Shown in pieces: positions 13,104-16,356 of a stretch of DNA of 24,000 nucleotides (position 1 is the first letter of the stretch; every line of letters starts with the position of its first letter). The notes beneath the pieces were generated by a model. That model was given only the letters and a program-made list of their open reading frames with translations. It searched no databases and was not told the DNA's origin. The stretch comes from Candidatus Binataceae bacterium (GTDB lineage Bacteria; Desulfobacterota; Binatia; Binatales; Binataceae), in contig JBKQNE010000082.1 in assembly GCA_052146355.1 (NCBI GenBank), forward strand, positions 1-24,000. Direction: 5' to 3'. The position numbers and the translations under genes were made by a program.

Positions 13104-13943
13104 ATGGCTACTGCACCAGCGCGAAAAATCGAAGCTACCGGCGACGGCGGCGGAGCCGCTGCGGGGCGCGAGCGAAATCCCACCGATTGGATGGTCGGAT
13201 GGCGGTCGCTGTTCTGGGGCTCTGCGCTCGTGATGGGTGCGAACATCTTTCTCTGGTTCTGGGATTACAAGTACGCGTTTGTAGCGGGACTCAACTCCGC
13301 GAGTCCCGAATTCACTCTTTATTTCCGATCGCTGTTCTGGAGCGAGTTGATCATCCTGGGCGCCTTTACCGGCATCTGGTACGGATGGTTGATTCGCACC
13401 GGGCGGGAAGTCGCCACCCAGCCGTTCACCCGCGCCGAAGAGGTCCGCCGCATCGCGGTTCTGTGGAGCATCATCGGCGTCACGAGTCTTTCCATCTATA
13501 TAGAGGCGAGCTTCTGGCCCAATTGGGACGGCGCCTGGCATCAGACTCTGGTACGCGACACCGCGCTCACGCCAACTCACATCCCGATGTTCTACTTCTT
13601 CTTCCCGCTCTCGGTGGTGCTCGCGCTCGGCGCTTACTTCTACGGCATGTATCGGATTCCCGCGCTCTACTCCCGTGACAAAGGCTTCCCATGGTCCTTC
13701 TTTCTGTTGATCAGCGCTGCGGTACTCGAATGTATGGAAGTGGCGTTCAACGAATGGGGCCACAGCCTCTGGATCTCCGAGGAATTCTTCGCGGTGCCGT
13801 TCCATTGGCCGTTCGTCATGTATGGATGGCTCGCCTCCGGCATGTTCGCGGTATGGGGCGAAACCATCCTGCGCCTCTATGAAATCGAAAAGGCCGAAGA
13901 AGAGGCTAACGTAGCGGCGGCCACGCAAGCGATTGCCGACTGA
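13104..13943 (+). CDS. pmoC: copper membrane monooxygenase subunit C (PmoC/AmoC family)
   Basis: Hallmark blocks WHQTLVRDTALTPTHIPMFYFFFP and NEWGHSLWISEEFFAVPFHW. D142-x3-H146-x12-H159 and N216-x3-H220-x13-H234 reproduce the spacing of the CuC (Asp156/His160/His173) and CuD (Asn227/His231/His245) ligand sets of Methylococcus capsulatus PmoC. GAGGA lies upstream of the ATG. Confidence 0.9.
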   Translation: MATAPARKIEATGDGGGAAAGRERNPTDWMVGWRSLFWGSALVMGANIFLWFWDYKYAFVAGLNSASPEFTLYFRSLFWSELIILGAFTGIWYGWLIRTGREVATQPFTRAEEVRRIAVLWSIIGVTSLSIYIEASFWPNWDGAWHQTLVRDTALTPTHIPMFYFFFPLSVVLALGAYFYGMYRIPALYSRDKGFPWSFFLLISAAVLECMEVAFNEWGHSLWISEEFFAVPFHWPFVMYGWLASGMFAVWGETILRLYEIEKAEEEANVAAATQAIAD

Positions 13944-13970
13944 CGGGCGCATCGGGGAGACGGGGGAACT

Positions 13971-14756
13971 ATGGGAACAGCATCTGCCACGCTTGGGGAA
14001 CGGCAGCGGCGTCTCGAACTGCGCGCGCTGCTCAACAAGCGCTACAAGTGGATCGATCGCAAGTGGGACATCGTGTTCTGGGTCACGGCGATTTTCGTGG
14101 TCGGCGGCGCCGCGGATATTACCAAGCAGCTATTCGCCGGGGACTGGGATTTCTGGACTGATTGGAAGGACCCGCAATGGTGGCCGGTCATCACCGCCTT
14201 CGCGACCATCATCATTCCCTCCGCCCTGCAATATATCCAGTGGACTGCATGGCGTTTCCCCACCGGCGCGACCTACACAGCGGTATGTTTCTTCATGTGC
14301 GCGTGGGTGGGCAGATTCTTCCAGTGGCACATCGCGGAAAATTACCCGCTGAATTTCGTCTGGCCCGCGTCGACGGTGTGCGCTGCGATTATCCTTGATT
14401 GGCTGCTGCTTAAGACTCGCAGCTTCATCCTGACCTCGTTATTCGGCGGACCGATATGGGCGTTGCTGGTCTGGGCGTTCAACTACATACCACTGGCTCC
14501 GTTCCTCCAGCCGGCCCACTTCATGAACCACGTGCTGACCGTGGCGGATGTGCAGGGCATCGTCCTGATCCGCTCGCAGACTCCCGAGTATCTGCGCCAC
14601 ATCGAACGCGGCGCGCTGCGCAGCTTCCTGGGAGAGACCCAGTACGTATCGCTGGTGTTCGGCGGAACCGTTGCCGTGGCAGGCTACTGGATCGGTCAAT
14701 TCATCGGTAGATATCTCGCCGTGTGGCCAATACGCCGTTACATAAAGACGCTGTGA
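13971..14756 (+). CDS. pmoA: copper membrane monooxygenase subunit A (PmoA/AmoA family)
   Basis: Hallmark blocks GDWDFWTDWKD, YPLNFVWPAS, TVADVQG and TPEYLRHIERGALRSF line up with PmoA/AmoA signatures. Size of 261 aa fits. A GGGGAG/GGGGGA RBS lies upstream. Confidence 0.9.
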   Translation: MGTASATLGERQRRLELRALLNKRYKWIDRKWDIVFWVTAIFVVGGAADITKQLFAGDWDFWTDWKDPQWWPVITAFATIIIPSALQYIQWTAWRFPTGATYTAVCFFMCAWVGRFFQWHIAENYPLNFVWPASTVCAAIILDWLLLKTRSFILTSLFGGPIWALLVWAFNYIPLAPFLQPAHFMNHVLTVADVQGIVLIRSQTPEYLRHIERGALRSFLGETQYVSLVFGGTVAVAGYWIGQFIGRYLAVWPIRRYIKTL

Positions 14757-14761
14757 AACCG

Positions 14762-15091
14762 ATGCAATCAAACCGCCGCCCTCGCATCGCGTCGGTGTGT
14801 GCCACTGTCGCGTGGATCGCCGCGTCGGCATCAATCGCCAGCGCGCACGGTGGGATGGCGGGTCCCGACGAGCTCGGACGCCCGCTGATCACTTCAGTGA
14901 TCCTCGCTGCGGTCTGCTATTGGGTGGTCATCCTATGGCCATCGCGCAAGCCGAACACCAAGGTGCCCTCAAACACGGGAGGATCGCGCAACCGCCGCGC
15001 GCGGCCGCGCCGTCCGGTCGGCATACAAGGTGGGACGCGAGCCGGTGCGCCCTATGAGGCTCGCGGCTGGCAGAAGGGTCGTGGCGAATGA
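14762..15091 (+). CDS. small membrane protein encoded between pmoA and pmoB (no recognisable family)
   Basis: It fills an otherwise unexplained 331-nt pmoA-pmoB gap. Its TGA (15089-15091) overlaps the pmoB ATG (15088-15090) in an ATGA junction. Third codon positions are GC-rich like its neighbours. It has a predicted signal peptide ending ASA, mature N-terminus HGGMAGPDE, one TM helix (LITSVILAAVCYWVVILW) and an Arg/Lys-rich tail. GTG 14723 is an alternative start that would overlap pmoA. Confidence 0.55.
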   Translation: MQSNRRPRIASVCATVAWIAASASIASAHGGMAGPDELGRPLITSVILAAVCYWVVILWPSRKPNTKVPSNTGGSRNRRARPRRPVGIQGGTRAGAPYEARGWQKGRGE

Positions 15092-16356
15092 TGGAAAAGA
15101 AAGCGATCGTAAAGCCGCTCATTGCCGGCGTTCTTTTTCTCGCTGTCGCCGCGATGGTTATCGGTCCGTCTAAAGCATTCGCCCACGGCGAAGCGGGTGA
15201 CGAACCGTTCCTGAAGGATCTCACCACCGCGTTCTACGACGTGAAAGTCTCTCCTACCGAAATCCATGTCGGCGAGCCGGTGACGGTTACCGGCACGGTG
15301 CGAATTCTCGAGACCTGGCCGTACACACTCGATCCGCCCGCGACTGCGTACATCACTCCCGTAGTGCCTGGTCCCGTGTTCGCGCTCCAGGATCGCACCG
15401 TCAACGGACAGTCCGCGCCCGGCTCGTTCTTTGTCGACCGGGGCGGCGTCTATCAATTCAAGATGGTCATCCTCGGCCGCGAGCCCGGACGATGGCACGT
15501 GCATCCTGGCATCGCGATCCAGGGCACGGGCACGCTCATCGGTCCCGGCGAATGGGTCAACGTCGCGCCAAGTGCCACGAAGTTCAGCTTCCCGATAAGC
15601 CTGCTGAGCGGACAGACGATCGATCTCGAAAGCTATAATGGCCGGTTCGTCTGGTGGTGGTCGTTCGCGGGGTTCCTGATCGGCGTCGCGTGGATGCTCT
15701 ATTGGACGCTCTCCAAGCGGACCGTGACTAACCTGGCCGTGACGTTGCAAATCGGCGTGAACGACGCCGCTCCGGATATCGGACTCATCACGCCGCGCGA
15801 CCAGATGTGGATGAACGTGTTTGCGGGAATTACCGTCGCGCTGCTGATCGTCGGATGGTTCTACGCGACCAATCGCTATCCGGTTCGATGGCCGCAGCAA
15901 ACCGCCTGGTTCACGCCCAAGATTATCGCGACCGATCAGAAGCTGGCCGAGGTAGAGCCGGAAGGTGCGATCTGGAACGATGGCACCGACACGCTGGTAA
16001 TGAAGGTGCAGGCGCGGAATATCAGCAATGCGCCCATCACGGTGAAGGAATTCATCATCGCGATGGCAACCTTCGTCAACGGCGGCGCTGACGAGCAGGC
16101 GAAGGCGGGGCCGCACGATTACGTGGGACAGCTCGAAGTTGAACCGAACACGCCGATCGCGCCGGGTGAGTCGAGGGAACTCACGCTCAAGATCACGAAC
16201 CCGGTGCTGAGCGAAGAGCGCCTGATTCCGAGCCGCGATCCGCAGCAATTCATCGCCGGGCTGCTCCGCTTTCAGAACGCCGGCGGCGGCGAACAATTCG
16301 TCACAACGCGCGTAAGCGTGGTCCCGACGCAGTTCAAGGCCCAGTACCTTCCCTGA
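15088..16356 (+). CDS. pmoB: copper membrane monooxygenase subunit B (PmoB/AmoB family)
   Basis: The signal peptide ends AFA, exposing H33-G-E. The RWH137VH139PG motif gives the His33/His137/His139 CuB ligand set with the same numbering as M. capsulatus PmoB. There are two central TM helices (FVWWWSFAGFLIGVAWMLYW and VFAGITVALLIVGWFY) and a C-terminal beta-rich domain. Confidence 0.9.
   Translation: MMEKKAIVKPLIAGVLFLAVAAMVIGPSKAFAHGEAGDEPFLKDLTTAFYDVKVSPTEIHVGEPVTVTGTVRILETWPYTLDPPATAYITPVVPGPVFALQDRTVNGQSAPGSFFVDRGGVYQFKMVILGREPGRWHVHPGIAIQGTGTLIGPGEWVNVAPSATKFSFPISLLSGQTIDLESYNGRFVWWWSFAGFLIGVAWMLYWTLSKRTVTNLAVTLQIGVNDAAPDIGLITPRDQMWMNVFAGITVALLIVGWFYATNRYPVRWPQQTAWFTPKIIATDQKLAEVEPEGAIWNDGTDTLVMKVQARNISNAPITVKEFIIAMATFVNGGADEQAKAGPHDYVGQLEVEPNTPIAPGESRELTLKITNPVLSEERLIPSRDPQQFIAGLLRFQNAGGGEQFVTTRVSVVPTQFKAQYLP

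What the first reader, a model, noticed from the sequence alone, without database searches (positions are those of the whole stretch)
13104..16356. Divergent CuMMO with all three copper sites intact but PmoA N-terminal hydrophilic-patch residues replaced
Seen directly: PmoB has H33, H137 and H139 (CuB). PmoC has D142/H146/H159 (CuC) and N216/H220/H234 (CuD), with exactly the spacing of the structurally defined M. capsulatus sites. The enzyme is therefore very likely catalytically competent. From my recollection of the M. capsulatus PmoA sequence (YHIHAMLTMGDWDFW), the equivalents of H38, H40 and M42 are D, T and Q here (ADITKQLFAGDWDFW). The PmoB His48/His72 positions are also not His. The genomic context does not look like a classical methanotroph or nitrifier. 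It includes a cellulase with CBM2 modules, LLM/SDR enzymes and high GC, and no methanol dehydrogenase or hydroxylamine oxidoreductase appears in the window. This suggests one of the poorly characterised CuMMO clades, such as a short-chain hydrocarbon monooxygenase or an unknown substrate.
Basis: partly seen in the sequence, partly recalled or inferred. Interest (0 to 1): 0.7.

Follow-up and report, generated by a model that had tools for sequence, protein, structure and literature searches.

The report
Binatia hydrocarbon-type copper monooxygenase operon
This is an intact copper membrane monooxygenase from an uncultured soil Binatia bacterium, in a lineage already described from metagenomes that is neither a methane nor an ammonia enzyme and most likely oxidises small hydrocarbons; its conserved helper genes are the less explored part.

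Summary
Window 13104-16356 encodes full-length PmoC, PmoA and PmoB homologues. All CuB, CuC and CuD ligands are in place, and the PmoA residues of the disputed "tricopper" site are replaced.

The interpretation also holds. The enzyme lies outside the pMMO/AMO/pXMO group and fails NCBI's AMO/pMMO equivalog cut-offs. It sits in a Binatia clade (bootstrap 100). That clade's sisters are CuMMOs of Actinobacteria, Dormibacterota and Caldinitratiruptor, which lie in propane/acetone-type gene cassettes.

It is not new as a kind. Murphy et al. 2021 and a 2026 Danish soil survey already describe Binatia CuMMOs with CAxB gene order and conserved PmoB histidines. The PmoA substitutions are fixed across the whole clade, not special to this gene.

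- a cytochrome c;
- the TAT small subunit and FAD large subunit of a fructose-dehydrogenase-like enzyme;
- a PmoD-like–Sco1 fusion;
- pmoC and pmoA;
- a conserved 109-aa membrane protein X with an invariant A-H-G motif;
- pmoB.

X-like ORFs also follow hmoB in the characterised Mycolicibacterium NBB4 enzyme.

The substrate is inferred, not shown.

The parts
9268..9780 (+). Small monohaem cytochrome c (one CAVCH motif) with an N-terminal hydrophobic anchor or signal. This is the maximal ORF. The true start is probably downstream, around 9390-9430.
   Evidence: Pfam Cytochrom_C 1.2e-06. Sequence. It lies 6 bp before the next gene. dN/dS is 0.22 against L002. Homologues lie next to the GMC genes in many Binatia loci.
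9787..10344 (+). Small subunit of a fructose-/glucose-dehydrogenase-type flavoprotein. It carries a twin-arginine signal (MKRREFLK from the ATG at 9814).
   Evidence: Pfam Gluconate_2-dh3 4.3e-05. TAT motif read. dN/dS is 0.25. It co-occurs with the GMC gene in related loci.
10355..11923 (+). FAD-dependent GMC-family dehydrogenase, large catalytic subunit. This is the proposed oxidiser of the alcohol product.
   Evidence: Pfam GMC_oxred_N/C. The nearest solved structures are the fructose dehydrogenase large subunit 7W2J (1.7e-48) and FAD-glucose dehydrogenase 6A2U (1.5e-41). It lies next to the CuMMO genes in 43 of 65 assessable Binatia loci, at median 82% identity. dN/dS is 0.06.
11942..13084 (+). 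Fusion protein. It has a signal peptide (..AWA|HRFGG), a PmoD-like cupredoxin domain (C36-x9-H46-x14-C61), two TM helices and a periplasmic Sco1/SenC domain (CPGVC). This is the proposed copper delivery and assembly factor.
   Evidence: Pfam SCO1-SenC 1.5e-19 for residues 225-351. The AF2 model of residues 1-195 has pLDDT 89.6. Its best fold match is PmoD 6CPD (E 8e-10, TM 0.77). The profile-to-PDB sequence match to PmoD is 3.1e-14. The N-terminal part is a stand-alone gene directly upstream of pmoC in other Binatia loci.
13104..13943 (+). CuMMO subunit C with CuC ligands (D142/H146/H159), CuD ligands (N216/H220/H234), R151 and the Phe cage F163/F229/F237. This is the proposed catalytic subunit.
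   Evidence: dN/dS is 0.08.
13971..14756 (+). CuMMO subunit A, with the clade signature AADITK[QL]LFAGDWDFW.
   Evidence: dN/dS is 0.017. It is 97% identical to a Binatia MAG (L002).
14762..15091 (+). X, a 109-aa protein with a Sec signal peptide (..ASA|HGGMAGPDELG), one TM helix (..CYWVVILWPS) and a basic cytoplasmic tail. Its stop codon overlaps the pmoB start (ATGA). This is a candidate fourth (supernumerary) subunit or copper-handling peptide.
   Evidence: It is present with the A|HG...TM pattern in 75 of 78 Binatia loci. A-H-G is invariant, including in the ORFs after hmoB in actinobacterial HMO operons. There are 46 database relatives, all 'hypothetical' and without Pfam. dN/dS is 0.23 over 109 codons. 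No Pfam or NCBIfam hit.
15088..16356 (+). CuMMO subunit B. The signal peptide is cleaved before H33, and the CuB histidine brace H33/H137/H139 is present. There is no bis-His site (A48, R72).
   Evidence: dN/dS is 0.09.

Best explanation
The window carries a functional eight-gene operon of an uncultured Binatia (Binataceae-like) bacterium.

Its core is a copper membrane monooxygenase of the hydrocarbon-monooxygenase-like part of the family (subunits C, A and B plus a small fourth protein, X). By analogy with pMMO and with the Mycolicibacterium HMO, O2 activation and substrate hydroxylation would occur at the CuC/CuD pocket of subunit C. The CuB histidine brace of subunit B would play a supporting role.

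The most likely substrate is a small non-methane, non-ammonia molecule. First choice is a C2-C4 alkane or alkene.

The alcohol product is released on the periplasmic side. The co-transcribed TAT-exported FAD dehydrogenase would oxidise it there and pass electrons to the small cytochrome c, and so back into the respiratory chain that re-reduces the monooxygenase.

The PmoD-like–Sco1 fusion would supply or insert copper.

Shown: gene content, ligand conservation, synteny, purifying selection and clade placement.
Inferred: substrate, electron path, and the roles of X and of the PmoD–Sco1 fusion.
For: - Intact subunits. All three are full-length with every CuB, CuC and CuD ligand, Arg165 and the Phe cage conserved.
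- Purifying selection. dN/dS against L002 is 0.02-0.25 for all eight genes, at unsaturated dS of 0.43-0.79.
- Operon structure. The eight genes are spaced -4 to 27 bp apart on one strand.
- Host. There are 80 related loci in Binatia MAGs, with PmoA identity up to 97%.
- Phylogeny. In the NJ PmoA tree the Binatia clade has bootstrap 100. It sits inside a clade (bootstrap 100) with Carbonactinospora, Lentzea, Dormibacteraeota, Egibacteraceae and Caldinitratiruptor, apart from pMMO/AMO/pXMO.
- Sister-clade context. Four of those sisters were looked up (Carbonactinospora, Lentzea, Dormibacteraeota, Caldinitratiruptor). Each lies directly downstream of amidohydrolase, DUF59 and Zn-ADH genes. Three of the four (not Carbonactinospora) also show a MimR-type regulator. 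This is the accessory set of propane/acetone di-iron monooxygenase clusters.
- Varied alcohol dehydrogenases in Binatia. The same CuMMO is paired with the GMC flavoprotein in 43 of 65 loci. In another subgroup it is paired with a PQQ methanol/ethanol-family dehydrogenase plus an Fe-ADH. The constant theme is oxidation of an alcohol product.
- AMO/pMMO equivalog cut-offs are not reached.
- Published trees place Binatota CuMMOs with hydrocarbon monooxygenases. Binatia genomes with these genes lack complete methanotrophy modules.
- Mutagenesis of the Mycolicibacterium HMO locates the essential metal site in subunit C (review PMC13058606).
- An X-like ORF follows hmoB in that characterised HMO operon.
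Against: - No activity data exist for any member of this clade.
- The nearest characterised enzyme, NBB4 HMO, is only 35% (C), 45% (A) and 36% (B) identical. That is about as far as pMMO, at 36% (C), 35% (A) and 32% (B).
- The grouping with NBB4/Rhodococcus HMO has only 41-49% bootstrap support in my NJ tree.
- CuMMO substrate ranges are broad, and first-shell residues do not discriminate substrates.
- The solved relatives of the GMC enzyme act on sugars. Its link to the CuMMO product is therefore inferred from synteny alone.
- A PQQ methanol/ethanol-family dehydrogenase next to the CuMMO in relatives would also fit methane.
- The rest of the genome was not examined.
Confidence: 0.55

Rival explanations
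1. Ketone (acetone/butanone) monooxygenase. As in Methylacidiphilum PMO3, the CuMMO would hydroxylate acetone to acetol. The adjacent two-subunit periplasmic GMC dehydrogenase would oxidise 2-propanol to acetone and acetol to methylglyoxal.
For: In Methylacidiphilum sp. IT6 the acetone-oxidising pmoCAB3 lies beside GMC large and TAT small subunit genes plus pmoD (PMC8630023). The window has the same trio of partner types. Three of the four sister-clade CuMMO loci looked up show MimR-type regulators, which are known from acetone/propane-responsive systems.
Against: No glyoxalase, lactate dehydrogenase or PEP synthase gene lies in the window. About a third of related Binatia loci lack the GMC genes nearby.
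Confidence: 0.15
2. Atypical particulate methane monooxygenase of a Binatia methanotroph. This could include atmospheric-methane oxidation, as proposed for TUSC-type sequences.
For: All pMMO copper ligands are present. Murphy et al. left methane open, and some Binatota genomes encode methanol dehydrogenases. A PQQ methanol/ethanol-family dehydrogenase lies near the CuMMO in one Binatia subgroup.
Against: The enzyme lies outside the pMMO clade and below the equivalog cut-offs. There is no methanol dehydrogenase or C1 assimilation gene in the window. The 2026 Danish survey found methanotrophy modules incomplete or missing in Binatia MAGs carrying these genes. The sister enzymes sit in C3-type cassettes.
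Confidence: 0.12
3. Oxygenase for another small hydrophobic substrate that has not been considered for CuMMOs, for example a plant- or lignocellulose-derived volatile, in a polymer-degrading soil heterotroph.
For: A GH5-CBM2-CBM2 cellulase lies 2-4 kb upstream of the operon, and a homologue lies in a similar position in L005. Identity to every characterised CuMMO is 32-46%. The partner dehydrogenases are varied.
Against: The cellulase is not conserved next to the cluster in 78 of 80 loci. There is no positive evidence for any specific substrate.
Confidence: 0.1
4. Ammonia monooxygenase used for heterotrophic or cryptic nitrification.
For: The best NCBIfam hits by score are the bacterial AmoA/B/C models. 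CuMMOs commonly co-oxidise ammonia.
Against: The scores are well below the equivalog cut-offs. There is no hydroxylamine oxidoreductase in the window. The phylogeny separates the enzyme from AMO. The neighbours are alcohol dehydrogenases.
Confidence: 0.03

Closest known systems
Binatota/Binatia CuMMOs described from MAGs (Murphy et al. 2021, mBio, PMC8262859; 'Putative pmoA Binatales' of bioRxiv 10.64898/2026.02.02.703227)
   Same: Same host lineage: 80 related loci, up to 97% PmoA identity. Same C-A-x-B gene order, with conserved PmoB H33/H137/H139, and pmoD present in some genomes. Those enzymes are placed with hydrocarbon monooxygenases, not with verified pMMO.
   Different: Nothing essential; this is a further member. 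Neither paper mentions GMC or Sco1 genes, and the first calls x only a 'hypothetical protein' (term searches). I could not decide whether the window belongs to their TUSC clade or their non-TUSC clade. The A682r primer site is absent, which argues weakly for non-TUSC.
Hydrocarbon monooxygenase HmoCAB of Mycolicibacterium chubuense NBB4 (plasmid pMYCCH.01) and the related Rhodococcus enzymes
   Same: C-A-B order and the same copper ligands. A small 'LAHGG..TM..basic' ORF belongs to the operon (L086:10110-10325). An alcohol dehydrogenase gene lies nearby (mdo). The enzyme is characterised as a C2-C4 alkane/ethene oxidiser with an essential metal site in subunit C.
   Different: Identity is only 35% (C), 45% (A) and 36% (B). 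The grouping is weakly supported. The X-like ORF follows B rather than sitting between A and B, and it lacks a long signal peptide. PmoA keeps H38 and M42. There are no GMC, PmoD or Sco1 partners.
Particulate methane monooxygenase of Methylococcus capsulatus Bath (PDB 3RGB, 7S4H)
   Same: Three homologous subunits. The CuB, CuC and CuD ligands, Arg165 and Phe177 are conserved at identical spacing.
   Different: Identity is 32-36%. The bis-His site is absent (H48->A, H72->R). The PmoA 'CuE/tricopper' residues H38, M42, E100 and N103 become D, Q, A and G. Scores fall below the family cut-offs. There is no methanol dehydrogenase context.
Methylacidiphilum sp. IT6 pmoCAB3 acetone monooxygenase cluster (PMC8630023)
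   Same: A CuMMO sits next to the large and TAT small subunits of a periplasmic GMC oxidoreductase and a pmoD gene.
   Different: The window additionally has a cytochrome c, a Sco1 fusion and X. It lacks glyoxalase, lactate dehydrogenase and PEP synthase genes. Sequence relationship was not tested.
PmoD/AmoD copper proteins (Methylocystis sp. Rockwell PmoD, PDB 6CPD; PMC6189053)
   Same: Residues 1-195 of the 380-aa protein share the architecture: signal peptide, cupredoxin-like domain with two invariant cysteines, and a C-terminal TM helix. They match 6CPD by fold (E 8e-10) and by profile (3.1e-14).
   Different: The CuA motif Cx7MxHxnC is not met, because the Met is Leu. This is the Cx9HxnC class, whose tested member binds copper without forming CuA. 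The domain is fused to a Sco1 domain. It has an extra, nearly invariant N-terminal A|HR.GGPNDP segment.

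Membership tests
Copper membrane monooxygenase (CuMMO) superfamily | Three subunits matching Pfam AmoC, AMO and Monooxygenase_B above the gathering scores, encoded together | tested here: met
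   156, 188 and 263 bits against cut-offs of 26.7, 27.5 and 22.7. The genes are contiguous in C-A-(X)-B order.
Copper membrane monooxygenase (CuMMO) superfamily | Copper ligands of CuB (3 His including the N-terminal His), CuC (Asp, 2 His) and CuD (Asn, 2 His) | tested here: met
   H33/H137/H139; D142/H146/H159; N216/H220/H234.
Bacterial pMMO / AMO (NCBIfam equivalogs TIGR03078-80, NF041557, NF041640, NF041641) | Score at or above the curated equivalog cut-off for each subunit | tested here: not met
   A: 200 vs 290 and 173 vs 318 bits. B: 282 vs 336 and 188 vs 395. C: 169 vs 319 and 148 vs 281.
Bacterial pMMO / AMO | Phylogenetic placement within the pMMO/AMO/pXMO group | tested here: not met
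   The NJ PmoA tree with 100 bootstraps places the window clade on the other side from the M. capsulatus, 20Z, N. europaea-type AMO and pXMO sequences. PmoA identity to these is 34-36%.
Bacterial pMMO / AMO | Companion methanol dehydrogenase/C1 pathway or hydroxylamine oxidoreductase | tested here: not met
   None in the 24-kb window. The whole genome was not available. Published surveys report incomplete methanotrophy modules in such Binatia MAGs.
Characterised hydrocarbon/butane monooxygenases (HMO of Mycolicibacterium NBB4, BMO of Nocardioides CF8) | Monophyly with hmoCAB/bmoCAB | tested here: inconclusive
   The window clade groups with NBB4/Rhodococcus at only 41-49% bootstrap. Identity is 35-46%. 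Published ML trees place Binatota with HMOs. No CF8 sequence was available.
Characterised hydrocarbon/butane monooxygenases | Copper-dependent oxidation of C2-C4 alkanes but not growth on methane | not testable with these tools
   Needs expression or cultivation.
Characterised hydrocarbon/butane monooxygenases | Operon-encoded small 'AHG + one TM helix' protein (my own candidate marker, not a published criterion) | tested here: met
   Window X, and NBB4 Mycch_5908, Rhodococcus, Mycobacterium ENV421 and Carbonactinospora ORFs.
Binatota CuMMO clade of Murphy et al. 2021 | Binatia host, C-A-x-B order, PmoB H33/H137/H139 | tested here: met
TUSC / Cluster 2 pmoA-like sequences | High identity (86-100%) to amplicons AJ579663, AJ868246, EU723743 or KC122308 | not tested
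   The reference amplicons were not available. The A189f site is present with 1 mismatch, but the A682r site has more than 3 mismatches. The primer pair that recovered TUSC would therefore not amplify this gene.
PmoD/AmoD family (for residues 1-195 of the 11942-13084 product) | Signal peptide, cupredoxin domain with two invariant Cys, C-terminal TM helix | tested here: met
   AF2 pLDDT 89.6, with a beta-sandwich at 37-149 and a helix at 153-194. Match to 6CPD: E 8e-10 by fold and 3.1e-14 by profile. C36 is nearly invariant and C61 invariant.
PmoD/AmoD family, CuA-forming subclass | Cx7MxHxnC motif | tested here: not met
   The window has C36-x7-L44-x-H46-x14-C61, so the Met ligand is replaced by Leu.
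Sco1/SenC copper chaperones (residues ~220-351) | Pfam SCO1-SenC above cut-off, with a CxxxC motif | tested here: met
   70.7 bits against a cut-off of 22.8. CPGVC is present.
Heterotrimeric FAD dehydrogenase–cytochrome complexes (fructose dehydrogenase, FAD-glucose dehydrogenase type) | GMC large subunit, TAT small subunit (Gluconate_2-dh3) and cytochrome c subunit encoded together | tested here: met
   The window cytochrome is at most 170 aa and has a single CxxCH motif.

The most novel reading that the evidence does not exclude
HMO-type CuMMOs, from Binatia to the characterised Mycolicibacterium enzyme, may be four-subunit enzymes. On this reading the conserved operon-encoded protein X is a genuine supernumerary subunit. 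X has an invariant A-H-G motif, which in Binatia sits exactly at the predicted signal-peptidase site, so that His becomes residue 1 as in PmoB. One TM helix follows. X would either bind copper through an N-terminal histidine or dock onto subunit C or B, as do the unannotated helices recently seen in pMMO and AMO cryo-EM maps. In Binatia the enzyme would additionally form a self-contained periplasmic module with a PmoD–Sco1 copper-insertion fusion and a flavocytochrome dehydrogenase that recycles electrons from the product.
Probability: 0.3. Interest if true: 0.6.

Novelty: new member of a known kind. Interest (0 to 1): 0.35.

Why it matters
No member of the Binatia CuMMO clade has a known substrate. 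The clade is nevertheless abundant in soils, and its genes are picked up by pmoA-based searches. Whether they count as methane sinks, hydrocarbon or ketone oxidisers, or something else affects how pmoA surveys are read.

The window adds a complete, well-conserved operon that gives concrete handles:
- a defined construct for heterologous expression (PmoD–Sco1, C, A, X, B);
- a partner dehydrogenase whose substrate range would reveal the CuMMO product;
- a natural variant lacking all four proposed tricopper/CuE-site ligands examined here (PmoA His38, Met42, Glu100, Asn103). If the enzyme is active, that site cannot be generally required in CuMMOs.

The small protein X may matter for the long-standing difficulty of expressing active CuMMOs.

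Tried and rejected
- Promoters and terminators. The scan of 8300-17000 gave no promoter-like site and only two terminator-like sites, both inside genes and fewer than in shuffles. It is uninformative.
- Rfam. No match at gathering thresholds anywhere in the window.
- Naming the 50%-identity family representatives. This returned almost no organism names. Clades had to be anchored with plasmid-borne references and with PDB sequences copied from HMMER alignments.
- TUSC versus non-TUSC. The reference amplicons were not obtainable, and only a weak primer-site argument resulted.
- Literature search for a named hmoD/bmoD equivalent of X. Nothing found.
- X detection. My first two regex/hydropathy filters were too strict and undercounted X (30 of 79 and 44 of 78). 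The relaxed pattern gave 75 of 78.
- Pocket scoring for substrate. First shell, Arg165 and the Phe cage are conserved family-wide. I found no published specificity determinants to score, so no substrate call was made from residues. The Phe240/Phe248 numbering is from memory; only Phe177 is confirmed.
- Modelling X docked on the enzyme. Not attempted. The structure tool takes single chains from the window only and returns no interface measures.
- Downstream genes. The MAPEG, SDR and LLM genes were considered as part of the system and rejected. They accompany the cluster only in the identical contig L001, not in the other 80 loci.

Full report
**1. What is in the sequence**

Three + strand ORFs lie at 13104-13943 (279 aa), 13971-14756 (261 aa) and 15088-16356 (422 aa). 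They are full-length matches to Pfam AmoC, AMO and Monooxygenase_B, with E-values of 1e-45 to 6e-78. Their best solved relatives are the pMMO and AMO subunits.

- PmoB has H33, H137 and H139. Positions 48 and 72, the M. capsulatus bis-His site, are Ala and Arg.
- PmoC has D142/H146/H159 and N216/H220/H234.
- The spacing is identical to M. capsulatus Asp156/His160/His173 (CuC) and Asn227/His231/His245 (CuD). Those numbers are confirmed in PMC12576850.
- The HMMER alignment to Methylocystis sp. M PmoC superposes D142/H146/H159 on D129/H133/H146.
- The second-sphere Arg165 and Phe177 are kept as R151 and F163. The two other Phe of the pocket (F240 and F248 by my recollection) align with F229 and F237.

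The gap-free alignment to M. capsulatus PmoA gives H38->D49, H40->T51, M42->Q53 and M45->A56, with D47/W48/D49 kept. I also found E100->A111 and N103->G114. Thus four of the five side chains placed around the proposed 'CuE/tricopper' site in 7EV9 (His38, Met42, Glu100, Asn103) are absent; Arg104 is kept as R115.

**2. Whose gene it is, and which clade**

- The exact PmoA occurs on a 6.2-kb Logan contig (L001).
- A scan of one genome per species returned 80 loci. Nearly all are from 'Candidatus Binatia/Binataceae' or from 'uncultured delta proteobacterium' MAGs of the Microflora Danica project. PmoA identity ranges from 78 to 97%.
- Database clusters carry Binataceae names.
- In an NJ tree of PmoA with 100 bootstraps, the window falls in a Binatia clade (100%). 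That clade is nested in a larger one (100%) containing Carbonactinospora, Lentzea, Egibacteraceae, Dormibacteraeota and Caldinitratiruptor sequences at 64-70% identity.
- This larger clade joins the characterised Mycolicibacterium NBB4/Rhodococcus HMOs only weakly (41-49%). It is separated from pMMO, AMO and pXMO.
- Identity to NBB4 HmoC/A/B is 35/45/36%. Identity to pMMO subunits is 36% (C, Methylocystis sp. Rockwell), 35% (A) and 32% (B).
- All three subunits stay below NCBI's equivalog cut-offs for AMO and pMMO.
- The motif AADITK[L/Q]LFAGDWDFW, and the A/S/T and G at the Glu100 and Asn103 positions, are fixed throughout the larger clade. The PmoA replacements are therefore a lineage signature, not a peculiarity of this gene.

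**3. It is already known as a kind**

Murphy et al. 2021 (PMC8262859) described CuMMOs in Binatota. They reported C-A-B, C-A-x-B and C-A-x-x-B orders, conserved PmoB His33/137/139, pmoD in some genomes, and two clades (TUSC-affiliated and Actinobacteria/SAR324-affiliated). They left methane versus short alkanes open.

The 2026 Danish soil survey recovered 81 MAGs with 'Putative pmoA Binatales' and 7 with TUSC-like genes. It placed both with hydrocarbon monooxygenases and found methanotrophy modules incomplete or missing. A 2025 paper lists Desulfobacterota_B (Binatota) among HMO hosts.

I could not decide between the two Binatia clades. The A189f primer site is present with 1 mismatch at 14139-14156, but A682r has no match within 3 mismatches. 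This argues weakly against the amplicon-defined TUSC.

**4. The surroundings: an eight-gene operon**

Upstream, on the same strand and spaced by -4 to 27 bp, lie:
- a small monohaem cytochrome c (9268-9780);
- a Gluconate_2-dh3-type small subunit with a twin-arginine signal (9787-10344);
- a GMC FAD dehydrogenase (10355-11923). Its nearest solved relatives are the large subunits of fructose dehydrogenase (7W2J, 1.7e-48) and FAD-glucose dehydrogenase (6A2U);
- a 380-aa protein with a C-terminal Sco1/SenC domain.

The N-terminal 195 residues of that 380-aa protein had no Pfam hit. Ninety-two database relatives are all 'hypothetical'. An AlphaFold2 model (pLDDT 89.6) matches the PmoD soluble domain 6CPD (Foldseek E 8e-10, TM 0.77). 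A profile of the family hits PmoD by sequence at 3.1e-14.

This domain has the PmoD architecture and both PmoD cysteines (C61 invariant, C36 nearly so). The CuA motif Cx7MxHxnC is changed to Cx7LxH. That places it in the Cx9HxnC class, whose tested member binds copper without forming CuA. The gene is therefore a PmoD-like–Sco1 fusion.

**5. The small protein X**

Between pmoA and pmoB lies X (14762-15091, 109 aa), whose stop overlaps the pmoB start. It has a Sec signal peptide ending ..ASA|HGG, a short acidic segment, one TM helix and a basic tail.

- An equivalent peptide is present in 75 of 78 Binatia loci. The three exceptions look like frameshifted long-read assemblies.
- Small ORFs with the same A-H-G plus TM plus basic-tail layout follow hmoB in NBB4 (annotated hypothetical), Rhodococcus WAY2, Carbonactinospora and Lentzea. 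In Caldinitratiruptor such an ORF lies between A and B.
- A-H-G is invariant in the joint alignment.
- A profile search found 46 relatives, all unnamed and without Pfam. They include Mycch_5908 of NBB4 and an ORF of Mycobacterium sp. ENV421.

All eight genes are under purifying selection against the closest relative (dN/dS 0.02-0.25 at dS 0.43-0.79; X 0.23).

**6. Synteny across relatives**

There are three arrangements:
- (i) the window type: cyt c, small subunit, GMC, PmoD::Sco1, C, A, X, B;
- (ii) a stand-alone PmoD-like gene 54-135 bp upstream of pmoC, without GMC or Sco1 nearby. In the two such contigs with called genes (L089, L090) there are instead a divergent Fe-ADH, a multicopper oxidase and a PQQ methanol/ethanol-family dehydrogenase (TIGR03075, 596 bits against a 480-bit cut-off);
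- (iii) C, A, X, B, small subunit, GMC, stand-alone Sco1.

GMC is adjacent in 43 of 65 assessable loci. Its median identity of 82% is as conserved as PmoA.

In four looked-up relatives from Actinobacteria, Dormibacterota and Caldinitratiruptor, the CuMMO follows amidohydrolase, DUF59 and Zn-ADH genes. Three of the four loci (not Carbonactinospora) also show a MimR-type regulator. From general knowledge of mim/prm clusters, this is the accessory set of propane/acetone di-iron monooxygenases.

The MAPEG, SDR and LLM genes downstream of pmoB, and the cellulase upstream, are not conserved with the cluster.

**7. How it most likely works**

The conserved theme is a CuMMO plus copper-handling proteins plus an alcohol dehydrogenase of varying type. 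That fits an enzyme making an alcohol from a small hydrophobic substrate at the CuC/CuD pocket of subunit C. Subunit C is where mutagenesis of the NBB4 HMO placed the essential metal, and where product-analogue binding placed the pMMO active site.

In the window, the product would be oxidised in the periplasm by the TAT-exported flavoprotein. Electrons would pass to the small cytochrome c.

I rank the substrates as follows:
- C2-C4 alkanes or alkenes first, on clade placement, C3-type cassettes in sister enzymes and published inference;
- ketones second. The Methylacidiphilum pmoCAB3 acetone monooxygenase sits beside GMC large and small subunits and pmoD, a striking parallel;
- methane third;
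- ammonia last.

None of this is shown experimentally. The nearest characterised enzyme is as distant as pMMO.

**8. What is new**

The finding as stated is a new member of a described kind. In term searches of the two Binatia papers I found no mention of three things:
- the tight, widely conserved linkage to a fructose-dehydrogenase-like flavocytochrome;
- the PmoD-like–Sco1 fusion;
- the family-wide small protein X.

Recent cryo-EM work found unannotated supernumerary helices on pMMO and AMO and argues that they matter. An operon-encoded candidate in HMO-type enzymes is therefore a testable lead.

The clade-wide loss of the four proposed tricopper ligands examined (His38, Met42, Glu100, Asn103) agrees with quantum-refinement evidence against copper at that site.

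**9. Verdict**

Novelty is modest (new member of a known kind). Interest is 0.35. The accessory genes are the part worth following.

Noticed in passing
window 14762-15091 (+); also L086:10110-10325, L087:7105-7386, L083:10145-10372, L084:10048-10338, L082:8782-9045: A small protein family with no Pfam or NCBIfam assignment. It has an invariant A-H-G motif, one TM helix and a basic tail. It is encoded inside HMO-type CuMMO operons from Binatia to Mycolicibacterium NBB4. In Binatia the His sits right at the predicted signal-peptidase site.
   Followed up: yes
window 11942-13084 (+): The protein annotated only as Sco1/SenC is a fusion. Its N-terminal half is a PmoD-like cupredoxin domain (fold and profile match to 6CPD) of the non-CuA Cx9HxnC class. 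It has a nearly invariant N-terminal A|HR.GGPNDP extension. In other Binatia the two halves are separate genes.
   Followed up: yes
window 9268-11923 (+): A cytochrome c, a TAT small subunit and a GMC large subunit form a fructose-/glucose-dehydrogenase-like complex. It is co-oriented with the CuMMO genes and spaced 6-18 bp apart. The GMC has a C-x6-C-x3-C cluster (ACWQLGFCFQGC) that may correspond to the 3Fe-4S site of FAD-glucose dehydrogenase; that comparison is from memory and was not checked.
   Followed up: partly
L082, L083, L084, L085 (about 4.1-10.4 kb in each locus): The closest non-Binatia relatives are Caldinitratiruptor, Carbonactinospora, Lentzea and Dormibacteraeota. In each, the CuMMO sits downstream of amidohydrolase, DUF59 and Zn-ADH genes. 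Three of the four (not Carbonactinospora) also show a MimR-type regulator. It looks as if a copper enzyme had replaced the di-iron propane/acetone monooxygenase in that cassette.
   Followed up: partly
P0207/P0368; L092:6071-9072: A second, quite different CuMMO (PmoA 247 aa, 39% identical, C-A-B with no X, Zn-ADH nearby). It occurs on large contigs, including one of 3,663,326 bp. A contig of exactly that length also carries the Binatia-type PmoA P0132, so some Binatia may carry two CuMMO types. Host identity was not verified.
   Followed up: partly
P0209 (514 aa), P0232 (985 aa), P0310 (1212 aa): Odd architectures appear among family representatives. One is an apparent PmoC-PmoA fusion protein. 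Two are long proteins with PmoA-like stretches embedded; one of these has six matched stretches.
   Followed up: no
L003, L023, L025, L030, L040 (titles): Contigs carrying this Binatia-type operon are filed in public MAGs titled Acidobacteriota, Verrucomicrobiae, Enterobacteriaceae and even Klebsiella pneumoniae. This is likely mis-binning or mislabelling, as the Danish survey argues for 'Ca. Methylotropicum kingii'.
   Followed up: no
window 14139-14156: The pmoA primer A189f matches with one mismatch. A682r has no site within three mismatches anywhere in the window. The classical A189f/A682r primer pair would therefore miss this gene.
   Followed up: yes
window 9165-9188: A perfect tandem heptamer, (AGGGGTT) x 3.4, lies in the ~800-bp gene-poor stretch (8469-9267) upstream of the operon. 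No Rfam family and no promoter-like match were found there.
   Followed up: partly
window 5409-7628 (-); L005:~1213 (-): A GH5 cellulase with two CBM2 modules lies a few kb upstream of the operon. A homologue at 81% identity lies in a similar position in one related locus only. It is therefore probably a neighbour and not a partner.
   Followed up: partly
L071, L072, L073 (about 8.7-9.1 kb): In three long-read MAG assemblies the X reading frame is broken, yet recognisable fragments remain (e.g. ..GIGGYWLMLLWPSRRR). These look like assembly frameshifts rather than gene loss.
   Followed up: no
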